Positions 3,805-63,452 are shown, numbered from the stretch's first letter. The stretch is DNA of 64,000 nucleotides from a virus (IMGVR_UViG_3300029319_000003:120188-184187), one strand, 5' to 3'. Translations and numbers: made by a program. The notes: generated by a model from the letters alone, not told the origin.

Positions 3805-3808
3805 ATCA

Positions 3809-50202: not shown

Positions 50203-50421
50203 TTATTTTTTGTTTTCCATCGTTGCCAACTGTACTAAATGGTGAGTGCTTGTCCAAGCAACATGCCCCTGCGGCTTAGACCAGTGAACCTTCACTTCGC
50301 TGTATGGCTTCGGAACGGATGCACCTGCACTTGCATGCGGCGATACATACTTTTCGATGACAATTCCCACACCGTAATCAGGAATGCCAGCAAGGTATCG
50401 AACCAGATCTCCTACTTGCAT
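50203..50421 (-). CDS. Small SH3/KOW-like beta-barrel protein (VGDLV family)
   Basis: MQVGDLVRY...GVGIVIE...VKVHW. Confidence 0.75.
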   Translation of the reverse strand: MQVGDLVRYLAGIPDYGVGIVIEKYVSPHASAGASVPKPYSEVKVHWSKPQGHVAWTSTHHLVQLATMENKK

Positions 50422-50660
50422 TAGCCGACCACCTCTCCGTAGCGTGCAAAGTTAGTGGCGCGGATAGTTTGGGTTACACCGCGTTGGAAGTGGATACGAA
50501 TAAGATAATCTGCACGATTAGCACGTTTACGAGCCTCGATAACAACTCCAGTGTCGTAGACCCATTCAAAGGCAAGTTCGCCACGGGCAGCGCGTTCTCG
50601 TCCGCGTTCGGGATGAACAACGGCGCGACGATAGCGAACAACATCTCCAACATTAACCAT
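50421..50660 (-). CDS. VGDLV-family small protein
   Basis: MVNVGDVVRY...TGVVIE...IRIHF. Confidence 0.75.
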   Translation of the reverse strand: MVNVGDVVRYRRAVVHPERGRERAARGELAFEWVYDTGVVIEARKRANRADYLIRIHFQRGVTQTIRATNFARYGEVVG

Positions 50661-50662
50661 GA

Positions 50663-50791
50663 TTAAAACCCTTCCACGCCGCAGCGGGCGTAACACTCAA
50701 GCAATGATTCGTACTCCACCAGCCACGCCCGACGGAGGATGATACCTCCCGGCTGGAGTTCAAGAGGAGTGATTTGAACGAACTTAGTCAT
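50663..50791 (-). CDS. 42-aa hypothetical protein (not in ORF track)
   Basis: MTKFVQITPLELQPGGIILRRAWLVEYESLLECYARCGVEGF; fills the gap between neighbours. Confidence 0.5.
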   Translation of the reverse strand: MTKFVQITPLELQPGGIILRRAWLVEYESLLECYARCGVEGF

Positions 50792-50806
50792 GATTAAAAA
50801 CCTTTC

Positions 50807-51013
50807 TTAAAACGGAATCGGATCTTCTACAATCTCAAAATCTTCGCCAACAAAGAGCCAAACATTTTCCTTTGCCGTCACACGAAGCGGAGCACCGCTT
50901 GCGATGATCTCTTCCTCACGAAGAGCGATGTAGAAGTAAGTCCCTCGCTGGATAGTGTGGATGCCGTCGGCAACTGGGGTCACAATATCTCGGATAGTAC
51001 GAATGCGTGTCAT
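50807..51013 (-). CDS. Hypothetical beta-rich protein
   Basis: MTRIRTIRDI...; AGAGAG RBS. Confidence 0.7.
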   Translation of the reverse strand: MTRIRTIRDIVTPVADGIHTIQRGTYFYIALREEEIIASGAPLRVTAKENVWLFVGEDFEIVEDPIPF

Positions 51014-51031
51014 ATCTAAAATCTCTCTTTC

Positions 51032-51268
51032 TTAACCAACAGTACCAACAACAACTGGAAGAACAACATAATCATCTGGATCAAGAGCAACAACACCAGC
51101 ATCAGGATCTGCTAAATCACAAGGAACAAAAAGAGCAGCACCACAAGCACCATCCGCTCCCCAACGATTAGCAGCAACATCATCATCAGTAACAACACGA
51201 AGTGCGCCCTCACCAATACGAACAACACCACCAAAATCAACATCACGAACAATACGAATAATTGCCAT
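51032..51268 (-). CDS. Hypothetical protein with extreme T-ending codon bias
   Basis: MAIIRIVRDVDF...; about 66 of 78 codons end in T by hand count. Confidence 0.7.
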   Translation of the reverse strand: MAIIRIVRDVDFGGVVRIGEGALRVVTDDDVAANRWGADGACGAALFVPCDLADPDAGVVALDPDDYVVLPVVVGTVG

Positions 51269-51314
51269 TTTCTTTTTCCACCGGGCGGGACACTATCGCC
51301 CCAACCACAAATAT

Positions 51315-51342
51315 ATTGTAGCAGGCGACCGGTGGAAGTCAA
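51315..51342 (-). promoter_or_regulatory. sigma70-type promoter
   Basis: TTGACT-16 bp-TACAAT. Confidence 0.7.
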
Positions 51343-51350
51343 GGAAGAAA

Positions 51351-51599
51351 TTAAGTTTTTTTCTTTTTTTCTCGATATAAATCACATAGTCGTCGGATGT
51401 TTTCGGGAGATCTCTTCAACAACTCTAGATCTCTTGCGGCGATTCGTTTTACTTCGCCACTGCCTTGCAGCACAACCGTAGCAATCTTTTCCCACGACTC
51501 ATATTTTAAAACGATAGCGACGGCATTCCAGCCCTTCTTGCCAGCATGCTCATCGTCCTCGTTGATGCACCAAACCCTTACCAGATCACCTTTTTCCAT
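51351..51599 (-). CDS. VGDLV-family small protein
   Basis: MEKGDLVRV...AIVLKY...DLELL. Confidence 0.75.
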   Translation of the reverse strand: MEKGDLVRVWCINEDDEHAGKKGWNAVAIVLKYESWEKIATVVLQGSGEVKRIAARDLELLKRSPENIRRLCDLYREKKKKT

Positions 51600-51825
51600 A
51601 TTCGACTGGAAGAGAAATAATTTTCAAATCAACAGCAGCGACGGACTCAATACATGGCACAGTGCTGATCACCTTAAACACTGGATGGTCCTGCCACAAC
51701 ACCTTGTATCGCTCGCCGCGCAACTCTTCTGGTGCGTCATAGTTGACATACGGCGCAGACACCACAATACCGATTCTTTCAATGTTGCGTGCGATGGCGG
51801 TCTTAACTAATGTGCCTTTCTCCAT
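51586..51825 (-). CDS. VGDLV-family small protein
   Basis: MEKGTLVKT...IGIVVS...YKVLWQ...DLKIIS. Confidence 0.75.
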   Translation of the reverse strand: MEKGTLVKTAIARNIERIGIVVSAPYVNYDAPEELRGERYKVLWQDHPVFKVISTVPCIESVAAVDLKIISLPVEYGKR

Positions 51826-52114
51826 TCTCTTCTTCCTTTTTGTTTTTATAAAACTTTGCCCTTCCACTTCGGAGGGCATCAAATATATTTTGCTCTATTT
51901 CGAACTGATCGTCTCCGCGTCCGTCCTTACCGCCACCTATCCAATAGATCTCCCAACACCAACAGACAGACGGCGAAAAGTCTGCCGACACTCTTACTTC
52001 GCCCGTTAGATTGAACCGACTCATGAGTATGCCAGCGCTGGGTGGTGTGTCATCTGTTGCTAAAACATGGATCAGATCCCCGGCTTTTAATTTTATATCC
52101 TCACCTTTTCCCAT
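51803..52114 (-). CDS. VGDLV-family small protein
   Basis: LKAGDLIHV...AGILMS...WEIYW. Confidence 0.7.
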   Translation of the reverse strand: MGKGEDIKLKAGDLIHVLATDDTPPSAGILMSRFNLTGEVRVSADFSPSVCWCWEIYWIGGGKDGRGDDQFEIEQNIFDALRSGRAKFYKNKKEEENGERHIS

Positions 52115-52135
52115 GAAGATAAATAGAACAAGTTT

Positions 52136-52717
52136 TCAGTACGCCCTATATGGATCTTCAAAAGTATAAAATTCGAAGCCGTCCACTTCGTCTTGAAGTT
52201 TCTCAAACACCTTTAGAGTACGCTCACAGTCTGCCAATGCAGTGTGTGCTTCGCCGGTCCATTGAACCTTAAAGTGTTCGCATAAATAATCCATACGGGT
52301 TTTCTGAAGTACGCCAGCCCACTTTAACTCATCTGCCATTGACTTTGTGTCAACGTAGGGTGGGTATTTAATTTCTTTTAACTTATTTCTTTCACACATT
52401 TCATGGATAAAGTTTAAATCGAATATCAGGTTCTGCCCAATAAGAAAGTCTGACTCTGTAATTGCTTTTTGAATTGTGGGGTATGCTTCTTGAAATGGAA
52501 TCGCCTCTGCCCACTTCTCTTCTGCGTATCCGTTGATCTCCAATGCCTTGGGAGAAGCCAAGTGAATGGCTTCTGGTTTGATTTTCTGATCGTACTTGCG
52601 AAGCACATATTCATTTCCATCGGCATCCACAATATAACTAATAAAAGCAATCTCAATAATCTCATGCTTTTTTCGATTAAGCCCTGTTGTTTCAGTATCG
52701 ATAACCGTAAATATCAT
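52136..52717 (-). CDS. DEDDh 3'-5' exonuclease (DnaQ-like)
   Basis: VIDTETTGL, IIEIAF, GQNLIFDLNF, AHTALADC. Confidence 0.92.
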   Translation of the reverse strand: MIFTVIDTETTGLNRKKHEIIEIAFISYIVDADGNEYVLRKYDQKIKPEAIHLASPKALEINGYAEEKWAEAIPFQEAYPTIQKAITESDFLIGQNLIFDLNFIHEMCERNKLKEIKYPPYVDTKSMADELKWAGVLQKTRMDYLCEHFKVQWTGEAHTALADCERTLKVFEKLQDEVDGFEFYTFEDPYRAY

Positions 52718-52765
52718 AATATACAGCCCCGCCGATGAAAGAGCGAGGCGTTCTCCTTTTAATTT

Positions 52766-53311
52766 TTATTCGTCAGCAGCCCAGTTGATATAGGACATAA
52801 GACATTGTGTCATTTGCGCGTCATACTTGGCGTCATCAACATACAAGCCCAGCCGAGCGGCTAGCCGCCGCCCACGCTTCCATGCTTCAATCTCCTCTGC
52901 AACCAGAGACACCCGATAAGCGGCAGAACGCTGGACGCGACCGTCGGTGGTCTGAGCGTACATTGGATGCTCTTGACTAAACTTTTCTGAGGTTCGATCA
53001 ACCAGCAAGTGACCACACTCATGAAGCAAGGTGTAGAATCTTGACTGTGCATGCTTGCGTGAGTTAAGATAAATCCTCTTCTTCTGGTAGATAATCGCGT
53101 CCTCAAGGTCGGTATACTCAATGACGGCGAACCCCTTTGTGGCGACCCAATCTTTAACCGCGTCGATTTGGTCTACCCAGTCCGCATTATCAAGAGGGCA
53201 AGTCAAGGCTTCTCCTTTGTTAGAGGCAACAACTCTTCCTACATTCATAATATAACATGCATACATCAGCGCGTCAACTGGTGTAATGTCAAAATTAATT
53301 TCGCCGGACAA
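52766..53311 (-). CDS. HExxH metallopeptidase-like protein (ImmA/IrrE-like)
   Basis: YTLLHECGHLL...EEIEAWKRG. Confidence 0.7.
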   Translation of the reverse strand: MSGEINFDITPVDALMYACYIMNVGRVVASNKGEALTCPLDNADWVDQIDAVKDWVATKGFAVIEYTDLEDAIIYQKKRIYLNSRKHAQSRFYTLLHECGHLLVDRTSEKFSQEHPMYAQTTDGRVQRSAAYRVSLVAEEIEAWKRGRRLAARLGLYVDDAKYDAQMTQCLMSYINWAADE

Positions 53312-53319
53312 TTTTTGAC

Positions 53320-53514
53320 CTACGACTTCAGTTTATTTTTTTGTTCAGGCGGGTAAACCATTTCCAAAGATTGCATGATCTTATCATAGGCTCCTTGATG
53401 AACCTTGATAGCGTCTTCGGTTGATGCGCTTCCGTGCATCCCTTGCCATATGTCTAACACTTCTTTACCGACTTTGGCTTCTTCAATTCTAAGAATAATT
53501 TCTTTTGCCGTCAT
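53320..53514 (-). CDS. Hypothetical protein
   Basis: 64 aa, AAGGAG RBS. Confidence 0.65.
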   Translation of the reverse strand: MTAKEIILRIEEAKVGKEVLDIWQGMHGSASTEDAIKVHQGAYDKIMQSLEMVYPPEQKNKLKS

Positions 53515-53533
53515 TTTTCTTCTCCTTAAAAAA

Positions 53534-53684
53534 AGGCTTAGGGAGGATCGCTCTCCTCGCTTGCGATCTTGCCAGTCATCCGTTAATTTTTAATCTGGTG
53601 CCTTTCTCTCAATTCCTTTTGCGCTCGGTTATGGGTTCGTTGATGACGATGAACCCCGCATATACCATGTGGCTCCCTAAGCCT
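53534..53684 (-). ncRNA. Unassigned structured RNA, copy B of a two-copy family
   Basis: 12-bp perfect terminal stem AGGCTTAGGGAG/CTCCCTAAGCCT then U-run; GGGTTC/GAACCC and GATCGC/GCGATC hairpins; loop GTCATC complementary to GATGAC; matches 26179-26310. Confidence 0.75.
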
Positions 53685-53877
53685 ATCGATATACAGATCT
53701 TTCTAAAACTTGTATATCATTATTTAAGTCGCCTATCTCGTCTCTAAGTAAATCATTTTCATTTTCTAACGATTCAATTCTTTTAAGCAGCAAGTCAATC
53801 TTAAGTCGTAAAACTTTAACAGAGTTTGTCTTGCGATAGTCAATAGCCTCAATGCTTTCGGGATCCATCTTTTGCAC
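53683..53877 (-). CDS. Small coiled-coil protein
   Basis: LKIDLLLKRIESLENENDLLRDEI heptads. Confidence 0.65.
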   Translation of the reverse strand: MQKMDPESIEAIDYRKTNSVKVLRLKIDLLLKRIESLENENDLLRDEIGDLNNDIQVLERSVYR

Positions 53878-53882
53878 CTACA

Positions 53883-54116
53883 CTAACTGGTGAATCCCGC
53901 CATACGCGCAGACTTCAGATCTTGTTCGGATGGCATAAACTCTTTGTTGATATGCCGACACGAAGCGCATCGAAAAATTGGAATTGGAATAACTCCACCC
54001 GGCATCCGCTTTACAATAAACACGGTGTCGAATGTGTTTGCATTACACTTTTCACAGACCACATCTTGTGCCCCGCTCAAATCCATTTTTGGCATCCCGC
54101 CCATTTGATTGTTCAT
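53883..54116 (-). CDS. Zinc-ribbon protein
   Basis: VCEKCNANTF...FRCASCRH. Confidence 0.8.
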   Translation of the reverse strand: MNNQMGGMPKMDLSGAQDVVCEKCNANTFDTVFIVKRMPGGVIPIPIFRCASCRHINKEFMPSEQDLKSARMAGFTS

Positions 54117-54136
54117 CTTTATCTCCTTGTGTAGAA

Positions 54137-54165
54137 AGTATATCTCTTATATTTGCGAGTGTTAA
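54137..54165 (-). promoter_or_regulatory. sigma70-type promoter
   Basis: TTAACA-17 bp-TATACT. Confidence 0.7.
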
Positions 54166-54392
54166 GAATTTTCTGAAACTACTCGCAACTCAGCCTCAAA
54201 AAATGTTTGTTTCTCTCCGTTGACAAAAACAAGATAGGCTACACCGTCACCTCTTTCAAGGTCCATATAGTAGTCCGAATCGCCGGGACTCGCAAACTCC
54301 ACCTTGTCAAGCACAATGCCAACTGCGTTGTTGAAGTTCTCCGTCTTGTCTAAGTGGCTGGTAATCTTTACTGCGCTGCCTATAGGAATCAT
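54162..54392 (-). CDS. VGDLV-family small protein
   Basis: IPIGSAVKI...VGIVLD...YLVFV...ELRVVS. Confidence 0.75.
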   Translation of the reverse strand: MIPIGSAVKITSHLDKTENFNNAVGIVLDKVEFASPGDSDYYMDLERGDGVAYLVFVNGEKQTFFEAELRVVSENS

Positions 54393-54796
54393 TCATCCCG
54401 CCTTTTAACCTCTTCGCTGAGAAGTTTGCCGCACTCTGGGCATTCGGCAGGTAGCCTGTTGACCATTCCCCACCTACAGTGTATGCATAGCCATCGATGA
54501 TCACTCTTTCCACTATTGAGGGTTACTACTTCCACCGGGTCAATATTTTCTTTACTCATATCTCTCGCTTTGCTAATAATTTCAAGGTTCTTGTCGCGGA
54601 GGTCACCCAAGCACCATTCGGCATTTTTGGGATTGTATATCACCACACAGTTTGAATCTTTTTGAGATACCTCAATCACTATTCCATATTCATAGATTGG
54701 GTCATAAGGGTACACCATGCCAACATCGTCGGCTGCAAAAGATTCATAATCTACAATCCATCTTACCAGATCACCACGCTTTATAGGGTCGCTCAC
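54389..54796 (-). CDS. VGDLV-family protein with C-terminal zinc ribbon
   Basis: IKRGDLVRW...YGIVIE...LEIIS, then CIHC...CPECG. Confidence 0.7.
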   Translation of the reverse strand: MSDPIKRGDLVRWIVDYESFAADDVGMVYPYDPIYEYGIVIEVSQKDSNCVVIYNPKNAEWCLGDLRDKNLEIISKARDMSKENIDPVEVVTLNSGKSDHRWLCIHCRWGMVNRLPAECPECGKLLSEEVKRRDE

Positions 54797-54816
54797 ATGT
54801 TTAAATATAAGCAGTA

Positions 54817-55077
54817 CTAAGTAGTCGCAACCTTTTTTATAATCTCAGAATCATAGACCCAAGTTTTATCACCCGGCTTTTTAAATGGGATCGACCATCG
54901 CTTTCTCAGTACATCAATCTCAGATTGATAAACCATTTCGGCACGCCAGCCTTTGTATCCGTCCCAAGAGCCGGTTGACTCTTGTATTCTCCGCTCAAGC
55001 AATCTGACGTGAAATTTAGGAATAGCCTTTCCAGTCATGCTTCTGATGAGAACTACATCGCCTTCTTTATATGTCAC
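54817..55077 (-). CDS. VGDLV-family small protein
   Basis: YKEGDVVLI. Confidence 0.7.
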   Translation of the reverse strand: MTYKEGDVVLIRSMTGKAIPKFHVRLLERRIQESTGSWDGYKGWRAEMVYQSEIDVLRKRWSIPFKKPGDKTWVYDSEIIKKVATT

Positions 55078-55925: not shown

Positions 55926-56138
55926 TTATCCCCTCGGGCTCAAAAGAGCAAGTTGATCTTCGGTATACCATCGCTCTTTACACTCATCGCCGGCGAGACG
56001 GTAGACAGTCCGCATGCGAAAAATACCAGTCTCTGTCGCGCCCCAATCGCCATGCTGCGGGACAATCTCATCCCGCTTATTGACAATAACTCGTTTTGTG
56101 CCTGTGCCCCAAATGGCAACAATGTCTCCGACGTTCAT
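55926..56138 (-). CDS. VGDLV-family small protein
   Basis: MNVGDIVAI...WYTEDQLALLS. Confidence 0.75.
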   Translation of the reverse strand: MNVGDIVAIWGTGTKRVIVNKRDEIVPQHGDWGATETGIFRMRTVYRLAGDECKERWYTEDQLALLSPRG

Positions 56139-56143
56139 TTCAC

Positions 56144-56359
56144 TTATCCCCTGCTGATAATCCGAACATTTGCATCCCGAAAGATTTCTCTTTGACCACT
56201 GATGCACAGGTATCGTCTGACGCCGCCAATGAAAGGAGAACGCTCAATCCTATAGACAACGCCTGTTATATCTGTCTTCCACCCACTGGGCGAGTAGACT
56301 TGAACCAAGTCACCCACCTCTGCCCATGAGCCATGATTGTTTTGGTCGCTACGGTTCAC
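56144..56359 (-). CDS. VGDLV-family small protein
   Basis: AEVGDLVQV...TGVVYR...VRIIS. Confidence 0.7.
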   Translation of the reverse strand: MNRSDQNNHGSWAEVGDLVQVYSPSGWKTDITGVVYRIERSPFIGGVRRYLCISGQREIFRDANVRIISRG

Positions 56360-56862: not shown

Positions 56863-56901
56863 TTACTCACTCCTTGGGGCTCTCCCCATCAGTACATTCA
56901 T

Positions 56902-56956
56902 ATTATCGCATAGATTCTAACAGAAGTCAAGCGATAACCGGACAAAAAATGTCCGG
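56902..56956 (-). promoter_or_regulatory. sigma70-type promoter with upstream CCGGACA-N5-TGTCCGG inverted repeat
   Basis: TTGACT-17 bp-GATAAT; inverted repeat at 56938-56956, 7 bp from the -35 box. Confidence 0.75.
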
Positions 56957-56964
56957 CACCCAAA

Positions 56965-57303
56965 TTAATATTGAACTCCGTATGGGGTAATCGGCAACAC
57001 CGCATCAAAGATGCTTCCTCTTACATAGTTCAGCGCCGGAGCCTTCCAAGTCGCTGCCTTAAGGATGGCACCATCCTGCGCCCGAACAAAACAGTAAACG
57101 CTGGTCTGGTTGTCAACCTTCGCGATTTTAATATATTTTCGCCCGCCCATGATTCGAATAGTGGGGGGTTTTAGATTACTCAAGTTAGCGGCAAAATGTG
57201 CATCCACCAGTTCTTGAATCCGGTTAACAAAATTAGGCAGTTCTTCCTGCACCATCGCGGGACACCGGGTTTCATCAATAGCCATTCGGGGATCTTGGTT
57301 CAT
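56965..57303 (-). CDS. Hypothetical phage early protein
   Basis: GGRKYIKI...SVYCFV...GAILKAATWKAPA; start MNQDPR after AAGGAG. Confidence 0.8.
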   Translation of the reverse strand: MNQDPRMAIDETRCPAMVQEELPNFVNRIQELVDAHFAANLSNLKPPTIRIMGGRKYIKIAKVDNQTSVYCFVRAQDGAILKAATWKAPALNYVRGSIFDAVLPITPYGVQY

Positions 57304-57326
57304 CACTAACTCCTTCTTACATATAT

Positions 57327-57380
57327 AATATAGCATGTACACAATGCGCTGTCAAGCAAAAACCGGACAGAAAATGTCCG
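57327..57380 (-). promoter_or_regulatory. sigma70-type promoter with the same upstream inverted repeat
   Basis: TTGACA-17 bp-TATATT; CCGGACA-GAAAA-TGTCCG at 57363-57380, 7 bp from the -35 box. Confidence 0.8.
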
Positions 57381-57569
57381 CTAGTAATTTTTTATTTTTG
57401 CCGCGCATGTATTGTACGCTTCCTCGCTATGATCATTGGCTTCAGTCATACAGTCCATGACACTCTCCAAGAACAGTGTGCGAGGGTGAACCCACATTGC
57501 CCACCAACCAGCAGCGAGACTAATGCACACAACAGAAAATAAAATCATATCTCTAATTTCGTTTTTCAC
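57381..57569 (-). CDS. Small membrane protein
   Basis: ILFSVVCISLAAGWWAMWV. Confidence 0.7.
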   Translation of the reverse strand: MKNEIRDMILFSVVCISLAAGWWAMWVHPRTLFLESVMDCMTEANDHSEEAYNTCAAKIKNY

Positions 57570-57723
57570 TTACGATCTCCAACAGTCCTGTGGTCATCCA
57601 GTTCGTTCGACCATCAACATTAACTTTCACAGAGTTACCACTAACATCAAGCACAATACACAAGATAGTATCACGCTGATTACCTTTGGCTCGATAGAGT
57701 CTCACCAAGTCACCCACATTCAT
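57553..57723 (-). CDS. VGDLV-family small protein (not in ORF track)
   Basis: MNVGDLVRLYRAKGNQRDTILCIVLDVSGNSVKVNVDGRTNWMTTGLLEIVSEKRN. Confidence 0.8.
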   Translation of the reverse strand: MNVGDLVRLYRAKGNQRDTILCIVLDVSGNSVKVNVDGRTNWMTTGLLEIVSEKRN

Positions 57724-57928
57724 GCACCACCTCTAGTTCAATAACCGGAATAGTCATCTTCCGCTCCTGTCCAAAAAATACAACAGCATGCTCTTCAGGC
57801 TCCACAATATCCCAGTTGATCTGCCGCCCGAGTTCGTGAGTTCGCCAACACTTCTTTTGTAGAAAGTCTATTGCGACCCCAACACTGAGGGAACCTTTTC
57901 TAAGTCTAACTAAATCACCGACCTTCAC
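57710..57928 (-). CDS. VGDLV-family small protein
   Basis: MKVGDLVRL...VGVAID...ELEVV. Confidence 0.8.
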   Translation of the reverse strand: MKVGDLVRLRKGSLSVGVAIDFLQKKCWRTHELGRQINWDIVEPEEHAVVFFGQERKMTIPVIELEVVHECG

Positions 57929-58199
57929 CAACTACCTCCACTCCATCAGTGATCCGACCCATCGTGGTGGGTGTTCCGTTAACCGGCGGGTAAATCATTT
58001 GCGGATAATCGCTCCGTTCTCTACCTCCCGACACACAACGATCAACTTCAATAACATATCGCTGACAGCCTTCAAACTCGTTGAGCCCGATCACGACGCC
58101 CTCCATATAACATGAACGAGGTCCGTCAAGATCCCGCATATAATGAAAGTCAAAAGACCGAACACGATTGCCAATTTCAATTTCCATTTTTATCTCCAT
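57915..58199 (-). CDS. VGDLV-family small protein
   Basis: IEIGNRVRS...EGVVIG...VEVV. Confidence 0.75.
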   Translation of the reverse strand: MEIKMEIEIGNRVRSFDFHYMRDLDGPRSCYMEGVVIGLNEFEGCQRYVIEVDRCVSGGRERSDYPQMIYPPVNGTPTTMGRITDGVEVVGEGR

Positions 58200-58392
58200 A
58201 GGGTGAACTGATTACTTGTAAATATGTGTCGTTGATAGTGTGTACATGAGATTTGCCGTGGGCAGTCCACAAGACGCGAAATCTTTGTTGCCCCGGTCGG
58301 TCCCAAGCAGGATCGTTTGGCAGAACTTCAAGCACAAGACCAGAGCCCTGCAATGTCCCAAACTTGTGTTTAACTAAGTTACCGACCAGCAC
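58177..58392 (-). CDS. VGDLV-family small protein
   Basis: MLVGNLVKH...SGLVLE...FRVLW...LQVIS. Confidence 0.75.
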   Translation of the reverse strand: MLVGNLVKHKFGTLQGSGLVLEVLPNDPAWDRPGQQRFRVLWTAHGKSHVHTINDTYLQVISSPYGDKNGN

Positions 58393-58558
58393 TAACCACC
58401 TCAAGGTCACAAGGAGAGCATATCACATTTCGTGTATGGTCAAGCGGCTTCACAACCCACTCTAGTCCAAAGACAGAGGAATGGTGGTGTCTAACAATCA
58501 CAGCCAACTTCTGACCGTAATGTTTTGTTTGAACTTTTACTAAATCACCGACTTGCAT
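58379..58558 (-). CDS. VGDLV-family small protein
   Basis: MQVGDLVKV...DLEVVS. Confidence 0.8.
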   Translation of the reverse strand: MQVGDLVKVQTKHYGQKLAVIVRHHHSSVFGLEWVVKPLDHTRNVICSPCDLEVVSAGR

Positions 58559-58721
58559 CAACCAACTCCAAACCATCTTGGGCGAGCACCATGATGTGAC
58601 CCGCAATCAAAACTTCCCAACACTTCACAATACGGGCGAAGGGGCGAACAATAAGACCAACATCTCTGACCGACCCGCTGGGTCCGAAACCCTTGAGGAC
58701 TACCAAGTCACCGACCTGCAT
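58545..58721 (-). CDS. VGDLV-family small protein (not in ORF track)
   Basis: MQVGDLVVLKGFGPSGSVRDVGLIVRPFARIVKCWEVLIAGHIMVLAQDGLELVDASR. Confidence 0.8.
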   Translation of the reverse strand: MQVGDLVVLKGFGPSGSVRDVGLIVRPFARIVKCWEVLIAGHIMVLAQDGLELVDASR

Positions 58722-58942
58722 TAATCACCTTCCACGACGGCTTCAAACTTATCAGCACGATCAAAGATTTGTGCCAACTGATTAACCACTCGACCGTCGA
58801 TCACATTATCGACAGGAGTTTGGAACTGGACTTTAAACCCACCCCACTCAGCATTATACATAGTGTGTTCAACAACGATACCAACTCCACCCGTTCGCGG
58901 GTGTCGGACCAAGGTTCCTACGGTGATTGCTGGCTGGTTCAT
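58721..58942 (-). CDS. VGDLV-family small protein
   Basis: MNQPAITVGTLVRH...VGIVVE...FKVQF. Confidence 0.8.
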   Translation of the reverse strand: MNQPAITVGTLVRHPRTGGVGIVVEHTMYNAEWGGFKVQFQTPVDNVIDGRVVNQLAQIFDRADKFEAVVEGD

Positions 58943-58971
58943 TACTAACTCCTTCCGCTCAGTACATATAT

Positions 58972-59026
58972 AATGTAGCATAGGAGCGCAGCACTTGCAA
59001 GGTTTAAATGTAAAGAAAATGTCAAG
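58972..59026 (-). promoter_or_regulatory. sigma70-type promoter with a degenerate third copy of the upstream element
   Basis: TTGCAA-17 bp-TACATT; ATGTAAA-GAAAA-TGTCAAG at 59008-59026, again 7 bp from the -35 box. Confidence 0.65.
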
Positions 59027-59042
59027 AAAAATTAAATAGGGG

Positions 59043-59279
59043 TCATTCAGCATCTTCCTCACTATAGAACTCTGACACTAGCCCAATTCTACCGGGATGC
59101 TCCCAGTGTATTTTTCCATTGTTCCACAGCACCTTATAAACTCTATCTGTAAACTGCAAGTGCCACGTTGTCTGGTTTTTGATTTCCTCTACTTCTAAAA
59201 TCAGCCCAACCTCATCTTCGTCCATGTGGGCGATGTTTTCTTTGTAAATAATCCTTACAACCAAGTCGCCTATTTTCAC
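59043..59279 (-). CDS. VGDLV-family small protein
   Basis: MKIGDLVVR...VGLILE...YKVLW. Confidence 0.8.
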   Translation of the reverse strand: MKIGDLVVRIIYKENIAHMDEDEVGLILEVEEIKNQTTWHLQFTDRVYKVLWNNGKIHWEHPGRIGLVSEFYSEEDAE

Positions 59280-59518: not shown

Positions 59519-59530
59519 ATTTTCTCCAAG

Positions 59531-59707
59531 TTATTTATTTTCCCAATCACCGTCGTCAAACAGCGCCTGTACTCTTTTATTTAGTTCTTCAATTTCTTGT
59601 CTGCGCTCTCTTGCTTTCTGCCAAGATTGGATCGTTACGCCGACAACCAAAACCGACACAAGCCCGAGCGAGAATAATCCAAATATAACCACGTCCAGTG
59701 TTACCAT
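59531..59707 (-). CDS. Small single-pass membrane protein (not in ORF track)
   Basis: MVTLDVVIFGLFSLGLVSVLVVGVTIQSWQKARERRQEIEEL... Confidence 0.65.
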   Translation of the reverse strand: MVTLDVVIFGLFSLGLVSVLVVGVTIQSWQKARERRQEIEELNKRVQALFDDGDWENK

Positions 59708-59802
59708 TTCATATCATCCCATACGCCCCACCAGACATATATCATCGCAGCGTTGGCGGCACAAACGAGCAACAGCCCGCCTACAATAACTTCAATGTTC
59801 AT
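59701..59802 (-). CDS. 33-aa membrane peptide (not in ORF track)
   Basis: MNIEVIVGGLLLVCAANAAMIYVWWGVWDDMKW; overlaps both neighbours. Confidence 0.5.
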   Translation of the reverse strand: MNIEVIVGGLLLVCAANAAMIYVWWGVWDDMKW

Positions 59803-59956
59803 CGATCACCTCAAACACCACATGGTTTGGATCGCATACAATTTTAAAACCCTTCTCATCAATCAATATAACGTACCCGCGTTGAGCGTCAGTATACTTA
59901 CCAACCAATACAAGCCCATCGGTCCATGTTGCCCTAACCTTGTCACCGATCTTCAT
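59792..59956 (-). CDS. VGDLV-family small protein
   Basis: MKIGDKVRA...FEVI. Confidence 0.75.
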   Translation of the reverse strand: MKIGDKVRATWTDGLVLVGKYTDAQRGYVILIDEKGFKIVCDPNHVVFEVIDEH

Positions 59957-60119
59957 TGATAGCCTCAAGCCTTTGCGCCTGCTCTTTTGTGTAGTGCCAT
60001 TCACCATTTATATTGTCCCACCGGACCACAACATAATCTTTGCTTATCTTGACAACCTCGCCAAGCGCTTCGTCATACTTCCACATTGGAGCCATGCGGA
60101 CTCGATCTTTAACTTTCAT
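59943..60119 (-). CDS. VGDLV-family small protein (not in ORF track)
   Basis: MKVKDRVRMAPMWKYDEALGEVVKISKDYVVVRWDNINGEWHYTKEQAQRLEAINEDR. Confidence 0.75.
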   Translation of the reverse strand: MKVKDRVRMAPMWKYDEALGEVVKISKDYVVVRWDNINGEWHYTKEQAQRLEAINEDR

Positions 60120-60330
60120 TTATTATCTCCACTTCATATTTCTTCACATCGATCATGCAGCGAATCCCCCGGCACAGTCCCACATATATGTAATCTATAT
60201 CTGGATGCCAATCTCGCAAATCCTCTGAATACAGACTACCAGAAAACTTTTCAATCACCAGTGTTGGCGGTGACCAGTCATCGGGGGAACCAAACGCCAT
60301 GCGGAACTTAACCAGATCTCCGATCTTCAC
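60109..60330 (-). CDS. VGDLV-family small protein
   Basis: MKIGDLVKF...YEVEIIN. Confidence 0.75.
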   Translation of the reverse strand: MKIGDLVKFRMAFGSPDDWSPPTLVIEKFSGSLYSEDLRDWHPDIDYIYVGLCRGIRCMIDVKKYEVEIINES

Positions 60331-60611
60331 TTGCCCGCCCAAAAAATATCAACATGACCGACGGGCACCTTAAGAACAACCATGCGCCAGCCTTGCCATA
60401 TAGGCAGCAAGATCTTGCTACGGGTCTGCTCGTCAAGGTTTTGATCTGTGTCTTCCATTTCCAGAATAGCGCGAATAATATTGCCGCCGTCATCGGACCA
60501 GAAGTCAACGGTGAAGCGCCCCTCCCAGTGCATTGCAATATGCTTCATAAGGGAACGCTTCGCTTCCTCGCGGGGAGCCTTGTTCTTCTTGTTGAAATAG
60601 ATATTAGCCAT
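60327..60611 (-). CDS. Hypothetical protein
   Basis: 94-aa ORF with CTAATTA motif 7 nt upstream. Confidence 0.7.
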   Translation of the reverse strand: MANIYFNKKNKAPREEAKRSLMKHIAMHWEGRFTVDFWSDDGGNIIRAILEMEDTDQNLDEQTRSKILLPIWQGWRMVVLKVPVGHVDIFWAGK

Positions 60612-60703
60612 GTCACTTTAATTAGGGTTGAGTGTTGTCAATATTGCTGTTATTGCCGTTTTTCGAAAAAAATTATTTTGCGTTTAAAGCCCTCAAACGC
60701 TAA

Positions 60704-60913
60704 TCATGCTTTACTCACAATTTCTAAAAGTGCAAAGTCGTTACCACGCATTAGTTGCATAGCATTGATTCCTTTAATTTTTGGTCCCATCCATCGGACA
60801 TGGACAGTGTAAGGTTCTTCGTCAATTGCGATAATCATTCCCATTTGCTCCCAAGGCAAAACGCTTTCGCGAATTCGAACGAGGTCACCAACCTTATAGT
60901 CAAGAACAGCCAT
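60704..60913 (-). CDS. VGDLV-family small protein
   Basis: YKVGDLVRI...MGMIIA...VHVRW...LEIVS. Confidence 0.8.
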   Translation of the reverse strand: MAVLDYKVGDLVRIRESVLPWEQMGMIIAIDEEPYTVHVRWMGPKIKGINAMQLMRGNDFALLEIVSKA

Positions 60914-60962
60914 GCGTTATAAATAGTACAGCCGCCGATGCATGAATTGCAATTTAATTTTT

Positions 60963-61196
60963 TTATTCTTCAACTTCATCGCAATCAATATTGTCAGGAC
61001 AGTCAGTATAAGAAACATCAAAGTGGTGCAATTGATCTCCGTCAATAAGACGCAGCCGCCCGAACACACTTACAATATACTTGTCTTCATCTTTGTTTGG
61101 CTGTTCCATGACCAACCCTACAAGTTGCTTCAAGAAAGGCTCGGGCATATCGCGTGGAATGTCGATCTTCACCATGTCACCAGTTTTAAAATTCAT
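60963..61196 (-). CDS. VGDLV-family small protein
   Basis: MNFKTGDMVKI...VGLVME...YIVSV. Confidence 0.75.
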   Translation of the reverse strand: MNFKTGDMVKIDIPRDMPEPFLKQLVGLVMEQPNKDEDKYIVSVFGRLRLIDGDQLHHFDVSYTDCPDNIDCDEVEE

Positions 61197-61324
61197 CAGA
61201 CAATCACCGACAAAATAATAAGACCAAGAAACATTGCCAGTGGGGCAATCCAAAGCATATGCACATCACTCTTGCTCTCGGGGGTCATGCCCCGCAGCAA
61301 TGCCTTCCAATACTCTTCCATCAT
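61196..61324 (-). CDS. 42-aa membrane peptide (not in ORF track)
   Basis: MMEEYWKALLRG...WIAPLAMFLGLIILSVIV; ATGA/TGATG overlaps. Confidence 0.6.
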   Translation of the reverse strand: MMEEYWKALLRGMTPESKSDVHMLWIAPLAMFLGLIILSVIV

Positions 61325-61500
61325 GGTAACACCTCCGCAATCCTATCGCGAGCAAAAATAAAATACCCGCCAACATCAGGGTGCTTCAACTTGACACTTT
61401 GGTCTTGCACCTCAACAACAGTATACACCACATCGCCATACATTTGCAATGATTTTTCGTGTACCATCATTCGAATCTTATCGCCTACTTTTACTTTCAT
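61321..61500 (-). CDS. VGDLV-family small protein
   Basis: MKVKVGDKIRM...YTVVEV. Confidence 0.75.
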   Translation of the reverse strand: MKVKVGDKIRMMVHEKSLQMYGDVVYTVVEVQDQSVKLKHPDVGGYFIFARDRIAEVLP

Positions 61501-61672
61501 ATGCCACTTCCAATTGGTCTTCGTACCACCACCCAGTCGGGGAGGACTCCGAAGACCACAGTATTTTAAAACTTGCCGGGACCGACCGGTCGTCCGTGTC
61601 GAGCACCAAACCAAGACATTCAATACCGCGTGCAATATCATACACACCATAAACCAGATCGCCAATTTTCAT
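61478..61672 (-). CDS. VGDLV-family small protein
   Basis: MKIGDLVYG...LGLVLD...FKILW...QLEVA. Confidence 0.8.
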   Translation of the reverse strand: MKIGDLVYGVYDIARGIECLGLVLDTDDRSVPASFKILWSSESSPTGWWYEDQLEVAYESKSRR

Positions 61673-61803
61673 TTACGATATTCCGATTGTCTTTGTCGAA
61701 AAAAATTTTCTACCACACTTATGCTTATAGCCAGCAATAAGCCGCTACTCATCAGTATGCATCCGAGCCATGCAGTCTCAGATATAAATTCACTTAGTTC
61801 CAC
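61669..61803 (-). CDS. 44-aa membrane peptide (not in ORF track)
   Basis: MELSEFISETAWLGCILMSSGLLLAISISVVENFFRQRQSEYRK. Confidence 0.55.
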   Translation of the reverse strand: MELSEFISETAWLGCILMSSGLLLAISISVVENFFRQRQSEYRK

Positions 61804-61966
61804 TTACTATCTCCATACTAGCGTAATGCACTTGATATGGATGCATGCGACCATTAATGACCACGATCCATTGACCCGGCACTTGCTCCCGAACCAGTAA
61901 GCCAAGTTTCCCTTTGTATTGAGGATAACTCGCGTCACATAGTTTGACGAGTTCACCCGGCTTCAT
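61790..61966 (-). CDS. VGDLV-family small protein
   Basis: MKPGELVKL...LGLLVR...MEIVS. Confidence 0.8.
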   Translation of the reverse strand: MKPGELVKLCDASYPQYKGKLGLLVREQVPGQWIVVINGRMHPYQVHYASMEIVSGTK

Positions 61967-62279
61967 GATCTCCACCACAGTCATGCTTTATCTTTTGTGC
62001 CTTACCACCTTTAAATTTAATCCACAACCCCCACATGATGGGTACCGCCAACCAGTGGAGGCAGAGTATCCAAGCGGCAGGTGCGCCGGCATAGAACGCG
62101 GGATGAACATGATTTCCAAGAAATATAAAAAGCAAAGGGAATAGCACATCCTCGATAATCTCCCAACCGATAATGATAACTACCAGCGCCACCCCATTTT
62201 CACGCATCGTCTTTTTAATGTTGCTCCACTTGAAGTGTTCCAACTTATGAGACAATCTATGCTTAAGCCATTTAATCAT
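61953..62279 (-). CDS. Membrane protein (2-3 TM)
   Basis: GVALVVIIIGWEIIEDVLFPLLFIFLG; AWILCLHWLAVPIMWGLW. Confidence 0.75.
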   Translation of the reverse strand: MIKWLKHRLSHKLEHFKWSNIKKTMRENGVALVVIIIGWEIIEDVLFPLLFIFLGNHVHPAFYAGAPAAWILCLHWLAVPIMWGLWIKFKGGKAQKIKHDCGGDHEAG

Positions 62280-62499
62280 TTGAAGAACCTACAAGTTTGA
62301 GATAAGAAAAATGCTCGGTGGTTTGCTTTGTGTCAGCCCACAGTACTCTAAACCGATGCCCTGTCGAGAATCGCGATGGTCCAGATACATCTTCTAATAC
62401 CAGACCGGGGTTCGCGTAATCTTTGCGATTCATCACCCAAGAGTTCGTGTGGAACATAACTAGATCACCGACATTTATTTCTTCTCTATCGGTCATCAA
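62272..62499 (-). CDS. VGDLV-family small protein
   Basis: INVGDLVMF...PGLVLE...FRVLW...LKLV. Confidence 0.8.
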   Translation of the reverse strand: MMTDREEINVGDLVMFHTNSWVMNRKDYANPGLVLEDVSGPSRFSTGHRFRVLWADTKQTTEHFSYLKLVGSSND

Positions 62500-62846
62500 G
62501 ACTTGCCTTTGTGATTTGCATTGCCGGCGTTATAGGCAACATGGCGCATCGGTCGATTGCCGATAGTTGTTTGCGAACCGGATAGGTGGCACGACTTGCC
62601 CTTGTGAAAGCCCGTGACGGCTTTCCAAGCCTTAGAGTAGGCTTCCCTATCCGCATCGCTTTCAAAGGCGACTATGGACATGCCAGCAGCCTTGCCATCG
62701 CCTCCTTGCAGTCCTAGATACTTTACGGCAGTCTCCGTGCCAAGTTCCTCCACGCAATCTGGGCATTCATTAATCTTGCCGCCGGCTTGACGCTTTGCCC
62801 ACGAATCGGGGTCGAACGGATAATTGCAATGCACACACTCTCTCAT
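62496..62846 (-). CDS. Zinc-binding hypothetical protein
   Basis: CVHC...CPDC. Confidence 0.75.
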   Translation of the reverse strand: MRECVHCNYPFDPDSWAKRQAGGKINECPDCVEELGTETAVKYLGLQGGDGKAAGMSIVAFESDADREAYSKAWKAVTGFHKGKSCHLSGSQTTIGNRPMRHVAYNAGNANHKGKS

Positions 62847-63043
62847 ACTTCACTCACCTTTGAAATAACTTTTAAATACTGGCAGTCATACCACTCTGGA
62901 TCGCCCCAGCCAATCCACTGGACCAATGCCAACAAAGCACCGCCGGGGATGCTGTCGTCTTCTACTGGACCAGATAAAAGAATACCATGCGCTATCGGCG
63001 CATCTGACGTAAACTTGTCAACAACTAAATCTCCAACATTCAT
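62843..63043 (-). CDS. VGDLV-family small protein
   Basis: MNVGDLVVD...HGILLS...LVQW...LKVIS. Confidence 0.8.
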   Translation of the reverse strand: MNVGDLVVDKFTSDAPIAHGILLSGPVEDDSIPGGALLALVQWIGWGDPEWYDCQYLKVISKVSEV

Positions 63044-63183
63044 GTGTTGCACTTCCCCTTGTGTTTAACCTTTCGCGTATACCGTGACTTGTCTTTGTGC
63101 TTACCCGCGCCACTGCGGAAGTGGGCTGCGACCGCCAACCAGTTACGCGGTTTTGGTTTAGTGACTACTACTTTGTTTTTCAT
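63040..63183 (-). CDS. 47-aa basic protein resembling ArfA-type alternative ribosome-rescue factors (not in ORF track)
   Basis: MKNKVVVTKPKPRNWLAVAAHFRSGAGKHKDKSRYTRKVKHKGKCNT; ATGA overlaps on both sides; YxRKxKH motif. Confidence 0.6.
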   Translation of the reverse strand: MKNKVVVTKPKPRNWLAVAAHFRSGAGKHKDKSRYTRKVKHKGKCNT

Positions 63184-63401
63184 GATCCTGCGACCTTAAA
63201 CTCTTTAGATTGCTCCCAACAACCAAAGCCGCCCATAATACCGGGAGCGATAGGAACGTCGGGCGCAGCCGGATCTTCCTCAACCAAAAGAACCCATGAA
63301 CCATCGTCATCGTCCATAGTAGCCGCTACCTCAAATACCAACTCCGCGTCATCTGGATGCGGGCGAACGTACTGAACTAAATCTCCAACTGAAACAAACA
63401 T
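63180..63401 (-). CDS. VGDLV-family small protein
   Basis: VSVGDLVQY...FEVAA...FKVAG; first gene after a promoter. Confidence 0.75.
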   Translation of the reverse strand: MFVSVGDLVQYVRPHPDDAELVFEVAATMDDDDGSWVLLVEEDPAAPDVPIAPGIMGGFGCWEQSKEFKVAGS

Positions 63402-63423: not shown

Positions 63424-63452
63424 ATTATCGCATTTCTGCAATCTGCTGTCAA
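63424..63452 (-). promoter_or_regulatory. sigma70-type promoter
   Basis: TTGACA-17 bp-GATAAT, followed by GGAGG RBS. Confidence 0.8.

What the first reader, a model, noticed from the sequence alone, without database searches (positions are those of the whole stretch)
50203..63401. Expansion of about 31 paralogous small SH3/KOW-like 'VGDLV' proteins in the early region
Seen: 31 ORFs (mostly 54-103 aa, three of them not in the ORF track) share (K/Q/N)-(V/I/P)-G-D-L-V-x, a central G-(I/L/V)-(V/I)-x-x strand, a (Y/F/V)-x-V-x-W strand and a terminal L-E-(V/I/L)-(V/I)-S, while loops are completely divergent. They are driven by strong sigma70 promoters and interleaved with tiny single-pass membrane peptides. 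Known: this pattern fits small five-stranded beta-barrels (SH3/KOW/Tudor-like) that bind RNA or proteins. Inference: a diversified library of one scaffold used as early host-takeover or anti-defence binders, comparable to a variable-loop repertoire.
Basis: partly seen in the sequence, partly recalled or inferred. Interest (0 to 1): 0.8.

Follow-up and report, generated by a model that had tools for sequence, protein, structure and literature searches.

The report
Chained SH3-like mini-gene family in phage
An uncultured 184-kb marine T4-like phage devotes at least 42 tiny, head-to-tail, often overlapping genes to very diverged copies of one unnamed small barrel-shaped (SH3/KOW/Tudor-like) protein; what they bind is unknown, and the same chains occur in many large marine phages.

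Summary
All 31 minus-strand ORFs exist. Leave-one-out profiles recover 23 of them clearly; 8 are weak by sequence. The family continues across the joined contig ends, giving at least 42 copies over about 23.7 kb. Codons at the shared motif vary synonymously, so conservation is at protein level. Two AlphaFold models (pLDDT 82 and 80) give a five-stranded SH3/KOW/Tudor-like barrel. No Pfam, PHROG or NCBIfam model hits the family. Its profile reaches PsaE, CPH/Cul7 and Mind-bomb SH3 repeats only weakly.

New here: many neighbours overlap by a fixed 14 nt, with the upstream stop inside the downstream Gly-Asp codons. The conserved tail is therefore partly the next gene's start read out of frame. 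The Leu-Glu codons also form the next gene's ribosome-binding site (GAG 259 : GAA 3 in relatives).

Paralogues are old: the best pair is 34% identical, while orthologues reach 37-83% and pN/pS is about 0.18. The arrays are widespread in 185-293-kb marine phage contigs but absent from cultured far-T4 relatives and T4.

The early binder or host-takeover reading is plausible but untested. A hypervariable-repertoire analogy is not supported. This scan found the same family earlier on other DNA.

The parts
50203..50421 (-). family member, 72 aa
   Evidence: leave-one-out 30.5 bits
50421..50660 (-). family member, 79 aa from ATG 50660
   Evidence: leave-one-out 14.3 bits
51351..51599 (-). family member, 82 aa; 14-nt overlap with upstream member
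   Evidence: 14.9 bits; orthologue 51% in L018; junction
51586..51825 (-). family member, 79 aa (GTLV variant)
   Evidence: 12.1 bits
51803..52114 (-). candidate member, 103 aa, weak by sequence
   Evidence: 3.9 bits; motif AGDLI
54162..54392 (-). family member, 76 aa (GSAV variant)
   Evidence: 16.8 bits
54389..54796 (-). family member, 135 aa, barrel plus C-terminal CxxC...CxxC tail
   Evidence: 18.6 bits; sequence
54817..55077 (-). candidate member, 86 aa, weak by sequence but same predicted fold
   Evidence: 1.9 bits; AF2 pLDDT 80, five strands; Tudor/BAH/KOW matches Z 6-8
55926..56138 (-). candidate member, 70 aa, weak
   Evidence: 5.4 bits
56144..56317 (-). candidate member, 57 aa (71 aa from GTG 56359), weak
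   Evidence: 6.2 bits; orthologues 35-40% in L018 and L142
56356..56862 (-). 168-aa protein with the family barrel as its C-terminal 69 aa
   Evidence: 12.0 bits for the domain; 47-80% orthologues in 9 IMG/VR contigs
57553..57723 (-). family member, 56 aa; 14-nt overlap upstream
   Evidence: 34.4 bits; 98% orthologue in L002
57710..57928 (-). family member, 72 aa; 14-nt overlap upstream
   Evidence: 11.9 bits; junction
57915..58187 (-). candidate member, 90 aa, weak by sequence
   Evidence: 1.0 bits; orthologues 97% (L002) and 51% (L144); pN/pS 0.24
58177..58392 (-). family member, 71 aa (GNLV; upstream stop TAA inside the G-N codons)
   Evidence: 20.8 bits; junction
58379..58558 (-). family member, 59 aa; 14-nt overlap upstream
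   Evidence: 15.2 bits; junction
58545..58721 (-). family member, 58 aa
   Evidence: 14.2 bits
58721..58942 (-). family member, 73 aa, behind a copy of the promoter cassette
   Evidence: 19.3 bits; shared 5' leader with gene 57342
59043..59279 (-). family member, 78 aa
   Evidence: 31.9 bits
59276..59518 (-). family member, 80 aa, net charge +11
   Evidence: 23.3 bits; charge
59792..59956 (-). candidate member, 54 aa, weak; 14-nt overlap upstream
   Evidence: 6.4 bits; 62% orthologue in L016
59943..60119 (-). candidate member, 58 aa (MKVKDRV; upstream stop replaces the Gly codon)
   Evidence: 5.2 bits; junction
60109..60330 (-). family member, 73 aa
   Evidence: 12.4 bits
60704..60913 (-). family member, 69 aa, modelled representative
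   Evidence: 21.2 bits; AF2 pLDDT 82, pTM 0.70; Spt5 KOW Z 7.8
60963..61196 (-). family member, 77 aa
   Evidence: 12.8 bits
61321..61500 (-). candidate member, 59 aa, weak; 23-nt overlap upstream
   Evidence: 8.5 bits; junction
61478..61672 (-). family member, 64 aa
   Evidence: 22.9 bits
61790..61966 (-). family member, 58 aa; 14-nt overlap upstream
   Evidence: 11.0 bits; junction
62272..62496 (-). family member, 74 aa
   Evidence: 18.7 bits; orthologues 38-43% in L018 and L016
62843..63043 (-). family member, 66 aa
   Evidence: 30.0 bits
63180..63401 (-). family member, 73 aa, net charge -12; first gene behind promoter 63452
   Evidence: 9.4 bits; charge
63424..63452 (-). sigma70-like promoter, 11 of 12 matches, TG-extended -10
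57318..57380 (-). hairpin plus T-run plus sigma70-like promoter cassette (PeSL-like)
   Evidence: (repeat D6)
56893..56955 (-). second copy of the hairpin-promoter cassette, 73% identical
58935..58990 (-). third, partial copy of the promoter cassette with the same 5' leader
   Evidence: (D7, D9)
54137..54165 (-). sigma70-like promoter, 10 of 12
51315..51342 (-). sigma70-like promoter, 10 of 12
57381..57569 (-). 62-aa single-pass membrane peptide, 17-nt overlap with the member upstream
   Evidence: hydropathy 1.95 over 19 aa; junction
59531..59707 (-). 58-aa single-pass membrane peptide
   Evidence: hydropathy 2.73
60917..61069 (-). 50-aa hydrophobic peptide
   Evidence: hydropathy 2.31
61196..61324 (-). 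42-aa C-terminally anchored peptide
   Evidence: hydropathy 2.63
61669..61803 (-). 44-aa single-pass membrane peptide, 14-nt overlap with the member upstream
   Evidence: hydropathy 2.27; junction
61953..62279 (-). 108-aa multi-pass membrane protein
   Evidence: hydropathy 2.09

Best explanation
This is an old, lineage-wide multigene family of small soluble SH3/KOW/Tudor-like beta-barrel proteins, median 72 aa. This phage has at least 42 copies, 31 of them in the window. The genes lie head to tail on one strand in a hyperplastic, sigma70-promoter-driven region that wraps the contig ends. A few promoter cassettes head long operons. Inside the operons the genes are chained by a compact junction. 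The Leu-Glu codons of the last strand form the Shine-Dalgarno site of the next gene. The next start codon sits inside the following Ser or Asn codon. The upstream stop sits inside the next gene's Gly-Asp codons, which gives the 14-nt overlap. Those points are shown. Inferred: the core residues hold the barrel, while loops that differ in length, sequence and charge give each paralogue its own ligand. Each copy would then act early in infection as a small binder of a different host or phage protein or nucleic acid, for host takeover, regulation or counter-defence. The targets are unknown.
For: Family and protein-level conservation. Fold: AF2 pLDDT 82 and 80 with the same five-strand topology. 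The best structural matches are all small SH3-class barrels: Spt5/NusG KOW Z 7.8, UvrD/PcrA and CarD Tudor-like RNA-polymerase-binding domains, PsaE, NdhS, PARC CPH, R67 DHFR and BAH/Tudor. Profile links: PsaE E 1.5e-4 and HERC2 CPH 1e-3, plus Cul7/CPH and Mind-bomb SH3 repeat proteins at the same residues. These are real genes under selection: pN/pS about 0.18 against a 97.5%-identical contig, and orthologues at 37-83% against at most 34% between paralogues. Surfaces are diverse: pI 4.1-10.8, net charge -12 to +11, and loop segments of 9-32 and 10-52 residues. Junction: 10 of 42 starts have the 14-nt overlap and 31 of 42 overlap the upstream ORF. In relatives the Glu codon is GAG 259: GAA 3, against 348: 443 elsewhere (Fisher 4e-70), and G precedes it in 175 of 262 cases. 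Promoters and the repeated hairpin-promoter cassette. Spread: 689 representative clusters at E<=1e-3, at least 120 IMG/VR stretches with the junction, 11-23 copies in five complete 185-293-kb genomes, and 692 ORFs in 80 loci, always on one strand.
Against: No binding partner, expression or phenotype is known, so the functional half rests on fold class and context only. Structural Z scores of 6-8 are middling for such small barrels. Both models used an alignment of the family itself, which biases them towards one fold. Eight of the 31 members are not recovered by leave-one-out profiles. In this genome alone the GAG preference is only marginal (14:6 against 94:106, p=0.06). 'Early' is inferred from promoter type and neighbouring genes, not measured.
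Confidence: 0.55

Rival explanations
1. The proteins are mainly RNA or nucleic-acid binders (LSm/KOW/Tudor-like) that adjust mRNA stability, translation or transcription elongation early in infection, rather than protein-protein adaptors.
For: The top structural matches include NusG/Spt5 KOW, ribosomal L24/L21e, LSm and PWWP-ssDNA. 13 of 42 copies are basic, pI above 8.5. [quoted passage not shown]
Against: Half of the copies are acidic, pI below 6.5 and net charge down to -12. The nearest sequence relatives, CPH and Mind-bomb SH3, are protein-binding modules. The family profile finds nothing in T4 at E<=1.
Confidence: 0.2
2. The array is largely a by-product of cassette proliferation. The conserved junction promotes duplication and exchange, and most copies are nearly neutral passengers without individual functions.
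For: The junction DNA is the most conserved DNA in the array (D1-D5). Content differs greatly between relatives whose anchor genes are 57-80% identical. Copy number ranges from 11 to 42 per genome.
Against: There are no recent duplicates; the best paralogue pair is 34% identical. Individual paralogues are kept as orthologues at 37-83% across diverged phages. pN/pS is about 0.18. All frames are intact.
Confidence: 0.12
3. The copies are mimics of photosynthetic SH3-like subunits (PsaE, NdhS, NdhO) used by a cyanophage to rewire electron transport.
For: The profile hits PsaE at E 1.5e-4 over its whole length. PsaE and NdhS are among the structural matches. One member gives a weak NdhO Pfam hit.
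Against: The genome has no psbA. The capsid protein is closest to non-Kyanoviridae far-T4 phages. No member reaches the PsaE Pfam model. About 40 divergent copies do not fit a single-subunit mimic.
Confidence: 0.03
4. The ORFs are not genes, and the shared motif reflects a repeated DNA or RNA element.
For: The conserved motifs lie at gene ends, where the DNA repeats D1-D5 are found.
Against: Codons vary synonymously at the motif. Interior motifs are conserved and models are confident. pN/pS is about 0.18. Hundreds of intact homologues exist.
Confidence: 0.02

Closest known systems
CPH (Cul7/PARC/HERC2, PF11515) and Mind-bomb SH3 repeat (SH3_15, PF18346) domains of eukaryotic E3 ligases; DUF1918 (PF08940)
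   Same: These are the nearest sequence relatives at profile level. The family profile matches the repeats at the same residues as the Pfam models, and the G-D-x-V ... V-x-W ... L-E-h-h strand pattern is shared. They are small SH3-class barrels that often occur many times in a row. CPH is a protein-binding module (established knowledge; reviewed in PMC8044464, listed but not read here).
   Different: No member reaches any of these Pfam models at E<=0.1. Here the units are separate, overlapping genes rather than repeats within one polypeptide, they are viral, and they have no RING or HECT partner.
KOW domains of NusG/Spt5 and ribosomal uL24 (PF00467)
   Same: This is the best structural match: Spt5 KOW with Z 7.8, rmsd 2.6 A over 62 residues. 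The N-terminal Gly-containing first strand is shared, and L24 gives a weak profile hit (E 0.06).
   Different: There is no Pfam KOW hit, no NGN domain and no ribosomal context.
T4 early LSm-like fold proteins GoF, MotB.1 and Frd.2 (Kim et al. 2025, PMC12152347)
   Same: These are small beta-barrel proteins of unknown function encoded among early genes of a T4-type phage, forming a small family with very dissimilar sequences.
   Different: T4 has three copies, against 42 here. There is no sequence link: the profile finds nothing in T4. No chained overlapping junction is described for them.
PeSL (promoter-early stem-loop) cassettes and hyperplastic regions of T4-type phages (Arbiol 2010, PMC2839356; Comeau 2014, PMC4122927)
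   Same: A variable block of small accessory ORFs lies between conserved modules. Repeated composite hairpin-plus-early-promoter cassettes are present: 57318-57380 and 56893-56955, with partial copies at 58963 and 53240. Gene content is scrambled between relatives.
   Different: Most units here are joined not by PeSLs but by a roughly 30-nt dual-coding junction inside the coding sequences, and the shuffled units all belong to one protein family.
Multigene families of large eukaryotic DNA viruses (for example ASFV MGF genes, poxvirus ankyrin or host-range families) - recalled from general knowledge, not tested here
   Same: Dozens of diverged paralogues of one small binding scaffold cluster near the genome ends, with variable copy number between strains.
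   Different: The hosts, folds and genome scale differ, and no link to host range has been shown here.

Membership tests
SH3-class small beta-barrel (structural class) | Five antiparallel strands forming a barrel, with a short 3-10 helix or turn before the last strand | tested here: met
   Two AF2 models: strands at 11-14, 24-31, 36-42, 52-56, then a helix, then 63-67; and 8-11, 22-31, 42-50, 71-75, 79-84. All top structural matches belong to this class. Caveat: the models used the family's own alignment.
KOW (PF00467) | Match to the Pfam KOW model | tested here: not met
   None of the 31 members hits it at E<=0.1.
KOW (PF00467) | Fold similarity to NusG/Spt5 KOW | tested here: met
   4zn3_A Z 7.8 over 62 residues; 2xhc_A Z 6.3.
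CPH/Cul7 (PF11515) and SH3_15 (PF18346) | Match of the members to the Pfam models | tested here: not met
   No hit at E<=0.1 for the 31 members.
CPH/Cul7 (PF11515) and SH3_15 (PF18346) | Superfamily-level homology (reciprocal profile match) | tested here: inconclusive
   The family profile hits multi-repeat Cul7 and SH3_15 proteins (summed E 1e-21 to 1e-8) on the same residues, and HERC2 at E 1e-3 in the PDB. Single repeats score only about 15 bits.
PsaE (PF02427) | Pfam match and photosystem context | tested here: not met
   No Pfam hit and no psbA in the genome. There is only a profile-level E of 1.5e-4 to PsaE chains.
T4 GoF/MotB.1/Frd.2 LSm-like family | Sequence relationship to the T4 proteins | tested here: not met
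   The family profile finds nothing in the T4 genome at E<=1. Fold-level similarity to those proteins was not tested.
PeSL cassettes of T4-type phages | Repeated composite terminator-like hairpin plus early promoter flanking variable ORFs | tested here: met
   Two 63-nt copies at 73% identity plus partial copies. The definition is taken from PMC4122927.
PeSL cassettes of T4-type phages | Recombination breakpoints at the cassettes | not tested
   No relative close enough to map breakpoints was retrieved. The relatives found are scrambled at 57-80% anchor identity.
Diversity-generating retroelement target (variable repertoire) | Reverse transcriptase with template and variable repeats | tested here: not met
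   The genome has no RVT_1 match, and no near-identical repeat pairs occur among the members.

The most novel reading that the evidence does not exclude
The roughly 30-nt dual-coding junction (ribosome-binding site within the Leu-Glu codons, start within the Ser/Asn codon, stop within the Gly-Asp codons) is more than compact packing. It may be a cassette-exchange site at which co-infecting large marine phages gain, lose and swap whole SH3-like binder genes. That would be an integrase-free, integron-like pan-genomic library of counter-defence or takeover binders, expressed in coupled chains.
Probability: 0.25. Interest if true: 0.85.

Novelty: new variant of a known kind. Interest (0 to 1): 0.62.

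Why it matters
At about one gene per kb in the arrays, up to 42 genes per 184-kb genome, and at least 689 clusters at 50% identity, this is one of the larger unannotated protein families in marine phage genomes. No Pfam, PHROG or NCBIfam model covers it.

The chained junction is a clean natural example of three signals (stop, start and ribosome-binding site) written into the conserved codons of two proteins. It can be tested directly with synonymous mutations.

If the copies prove to be specific binders, they would offer a ready-made set of tiny natural affinity scaffolds and a way into how large uncultured phages take over their hosts. If they are not, the arrays still show how phage hyperplastic regions grow.

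Tried and rejected
- Megablast of the region against GenBank phages: no match.
- tblastn of an 840-aa neighbour and of a two-domain homologue against GenBank phages: no match.
- Pfam, PHROG and NCBIfam scans of every member: only scattered single weak hits and no shared family.
- The search for related loci with the alignment failed because no stretch was conserved enough.
- Family profile against cultured far-T4 relatives (Flavobacterium phage immuto, Microcystis phage Mel-JY01, Rhodothermus phage RM378), a 484-kb uncultured phage and T4: no matches. The first-look filter is loose, so very distant copies could be missed.
- Reverse transcriptase and psbA in the genome: absent.
- Programmed +1 frameshifting to fuse neighbours was considered. 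In-frame two-domain homologues exist (P0007 and P0010), but the overlap contains no slippery site, so I give this low weight.
- The complex-prediction job was not used, because no partner could be named.
- Four literature searches found no description of this family or its junction. They were not exhaustive.

Full report
**What the window is.** The window is the last 64 kb of a single 184,187-bp virus contig, rated 100% complete by CheckV. The contig encodes a T4-type major capsid protein (Pfam Gp23, 206 bits). Its nearest cultured relatives, at about 50% identity, are Flavobacterium phage immuto, Microcystis phage Mel-JY01 and Rhodothermus phage RM378, so it is a 'far-T4' myovirus. Near-identical fragments come from Tara Oceans and other marine metagenomes. 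The genome has PhoH, a small heat-shock protein and a baseplate wedge protein, but no psbA. The host is unknown. Canonical sigma70-type promoters and strong Shine-Dalgarno sites argue, from general knowledge, against a Bacteroidota host.

- All 31 ORFs are on the minus strand and align on xVGDLV, G-h-V-h, h-x-V-x-W and L-E-h-h.
- The short motif G[DE][LIVM]V occurs 25 times in minus-strand frames, 24 of them beyond 48 kb, and never in plus-strand frames.
- In leave-one-out tests, 23 of the 31 score 9-34 bits and beat all 20 of their own shuffles. Eight are weak: 51803, 54817, 55926, 56144, 57915, 59792, 59943 and 61321.
- The weak ones are still real genes of the same kind where this could be checked. 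54817-55077 models as the same barrel. 57915-58187 has orthologues at 97% and 51%, 59792-59956 at 62%, and 56144-56317 at 35-40%.
- At the G-D-L-V positions the 41 members that carry the motif use four Gly, two Asp, six Leu and four Val codons. Conservation is therefore at protein level, not a DNA repeat.

**The family is larger than reported.**
- A profile of the 31 finds further minus-strand copies at the other end of the contig, at 1054-9394.
- The two ends join. The small heat-shock gene cut by the contig start continues for 13 codons into the contig end and then stops.
- A relative, L018, has the orthologue of 2463-2678 directly upstream of the orthologue of window 62272-62496.
- The block is therefore about 23.7 kb with at least 42 members.

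**Fold.**
- AlphaFold2 on 60704-60913 with the 42-member alignment gives pLDDT 82 and pTM 0.70, with five strands and a short helix before the last strand.
- Foldseek and VIA-align return only small SH3-class barrels: Spt5 KOW (Z 7.8, 62 residues, rmsd 2.6), NusG, UvrD/PcrA and CarD Tudor-like domains, RecD2 SH3, NdhS, PsaE, PARC CPH, R67 DHFR and HspQ. The ESM Atlas agrees.
- The sequence-weak 54817-55077 gives pLDDT 80, the same topology, and BAH/Tudor/KOW/PWWP matches at Z 6-8.
- Caveats: Z below 8 is middling, and both models leaned on the family's own alignment.

**Relatives.**
- No Pfam, PHROG or NCBIfam model covers the family.
- Its profile finds 689 cluster representatives at E<=1e-3 among 1.84 billion. 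About 60% of the best 150 are unnamed 53-105-aa metagenomic proteins of the form MKVGDLV...LEVI(S/N)ESR.
- The rest are multi-repeat proteins, mostly eukaryotic RING/TRIM E3 ligases with Cul7/CPH or Mind-bomb SH3 repeats, plus DUF1918-like tandem proteins. They match at the same residues as the Pfam models.
- Against PDB sequences the best hits are PsaE (1.5e-4), HERC2 CPH (1e-3) and L24 KOW (0.06).
- I read this as a new family inside the SH3 superfamily, nearest to the CPH and Mind-bomb group.

**The junction.** I found this before consulting earlier notes.
- Ten of 42 members start exactly 14 nt before the stop of the upstream ORF. The consensus is RTG-NNN-GTN-GGT-RA, so the upstream TGA or TAA lies inside the downstream Gly-Asp or Gly-Asn codons.
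- 31 of 42 starts overlap the upstream ORF by at least 1 nt.
- The conserved C-terminal tail, such as ...NESR or ...SAGR, is therefore the next gene's M-K-V-G-D read in another frame.
- Half of the small metagenomic homologues end in the same tail: 45 of 90 and 361 of 692.
- The Leu-Glu codons also build the next gene's ribosome-binding site. In 262 such junctions from IMG/VR loci the Glu codon is GAG 259 times and GAA 3 times, against 348:443 elsewhere in the same ORFs (Fisher 4e-70). G precedes it in 175 cases, giving GGAG, and GTN follows it, giving GAGGT.
- The scan pattern allowed both GAG and GAA, so it did not create this bias. In this genome alone the trend is only marginal (p=0.06).

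**Promoters and peptides.**
- Six sigma70-like sites with at least 10 of 12 matches lie on the coding strand, in gaps.
- Two of them (57318-57380 and 56893-56955) are copies of a 63-nt cassette made of a hairpin, a T-run and a TG-extended promoter. Partial copies lie at 58963 and 53240. One copy carries the same 5' leader and first three codons into two unrelated genes.
- This resembles the PeSL cassettes of T4-type hyperplastic regions (PMC4122927).
- A few promoters therefore head long, translationally coupled operons. Individual genes are not each driven by a promoter.
- Five peptides of 42-62 aa and one 108-aa protein have hydrophobic segments typical of membrane spans. Two of them are chained to family members by the same kind of overlap.

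**Evolution.**
- Within the genome the best paralogue pair is 34% identical over 62 residues, and most pairs are barely detectable.
- Specific paralogues have clearer orthologues in other contigs, at 37-83%.
- Against a 97.5%-identical Tara contig, the four family genes covered show 10.5 synonymous and 6.5 non-synonymous changes, a pN/pS of about 0.18.
- The copies are therefore old and individually maintained. They are not a recent accordion or a hypermutated repertoire, and the genome has no reverse transcriptase.
- Array content is nevertheless plastic. L018 has about 3 kb where this genome has about 14 kb. Contigs whose 168-aa anchor protein is 57-80% identical carry other cassettes in another order.
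Many are in 185-293-kb contigs.
- Five complete genomes carry 11-23 profile hits each. The cultured far-T4 phages and T4 have none.

**Function.** This part is inferred, not shown.
- Conserved residues are the core of the strands. Loop segments range from 9-32 and 10-52 residues, and net charge runs from -12 to +11.
- The nearest relatives, CPH and Mind-bomb SH3, are protein-binding modules, while KOW and Tudor-like domains are protein- or nucleic-acid-binding modules.
- The most likely reading is a set of small binders made early in coupled chains, each with its own target. A nucleic-acid-binding subset is the main rival, with T4's GoF family as precedent (PMC12152347).
- No partner, host or expression data are available.

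**Earlier findings in this scan.** The same family and junction were reported before on other uncultured marine T4-like phages and on a groundwater phage. A comparable SH3-like expansion was reported in an Acinetobacter phage. My results agree with those notes.

Noticed in passing
window 63040-63183 (-): A 47-aa, very basic peptide lies directly downstream of the first family member with an ATGA overlap. It gives a weak match to DUF7230 (E 1.4e-3, below the cut-off). By recollection it resembles the Lys/Arg-rich motif of ribosome-rescue factor ArfA; that resemblance was not tested.
   Followed up: partly
window 57296-57316 and 58935-58955 (-): The same 21-nt leader (ribosome-binding site plus the first three codons, M-N-Q) is shared at 95% by two unrelated genes: the DUF7717 protein at 56965-57303 and the family member at 58721-58942. 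Each sits behind a copy of the promoter cassette, so the cassette seems to have moved together with a start codon.
   Followed up: partly
window 54389-54796 (-) and 62496-62846 (-): Two proteins in the block carry paired CxxC motifs that look like zinc ribbons. One is fused to the C-terminus of a family barrel (135 aa). The other is a separate 116-aa protein.
   Followed up: no
G000:C1 184150-184187 joined to 1-438 (L001 1-438, -): A small heat-shock protein (Hsp20-like) gene is split by the contig ends and reads through when the ends are joined. The contig therefore looks like a circularly closed or permuted assembly, with the family arrays on both sides of this gene.
   Followed up: yes
L001 9891-11742 (-): Directly upstream of the family block, several larger ORFs begin with the same leader of about 14 aa, MK(L/N/H)(I/L)(I/M)ENWR(K/S/R)(F/Y)(L/V). 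Another first-stage note flagged this too.
   Followed up: no
window 52766-53311 (-), 52136-52717 (-), 49472-50128 (-): An IrrE/Peptidase_M78-like protein, an RNase T-type exonuclease and a 5'-3' deoxyribonucleotidase lie inside or next to the array. They keep their order in the relative L018, while the small genes between them differ.
   Followed up: partly
P0007, P0010, P0002, P0006 (metagenomic homologues): In-frame fusions of two to five family barrels in one polypeptide exist in metagenomes. This is the third possible outcome of packing the cassettes without spacers, alongside the two overlapping frames.
   Followed up: partly
L011 (G000:C1 72848-74518, -): The T4-type major capsid protein matches its relatives in two pieces covering only about 53% of a 557-residue open frame. 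This suggests a large insertion in the capsid protein.
   Followed up: no
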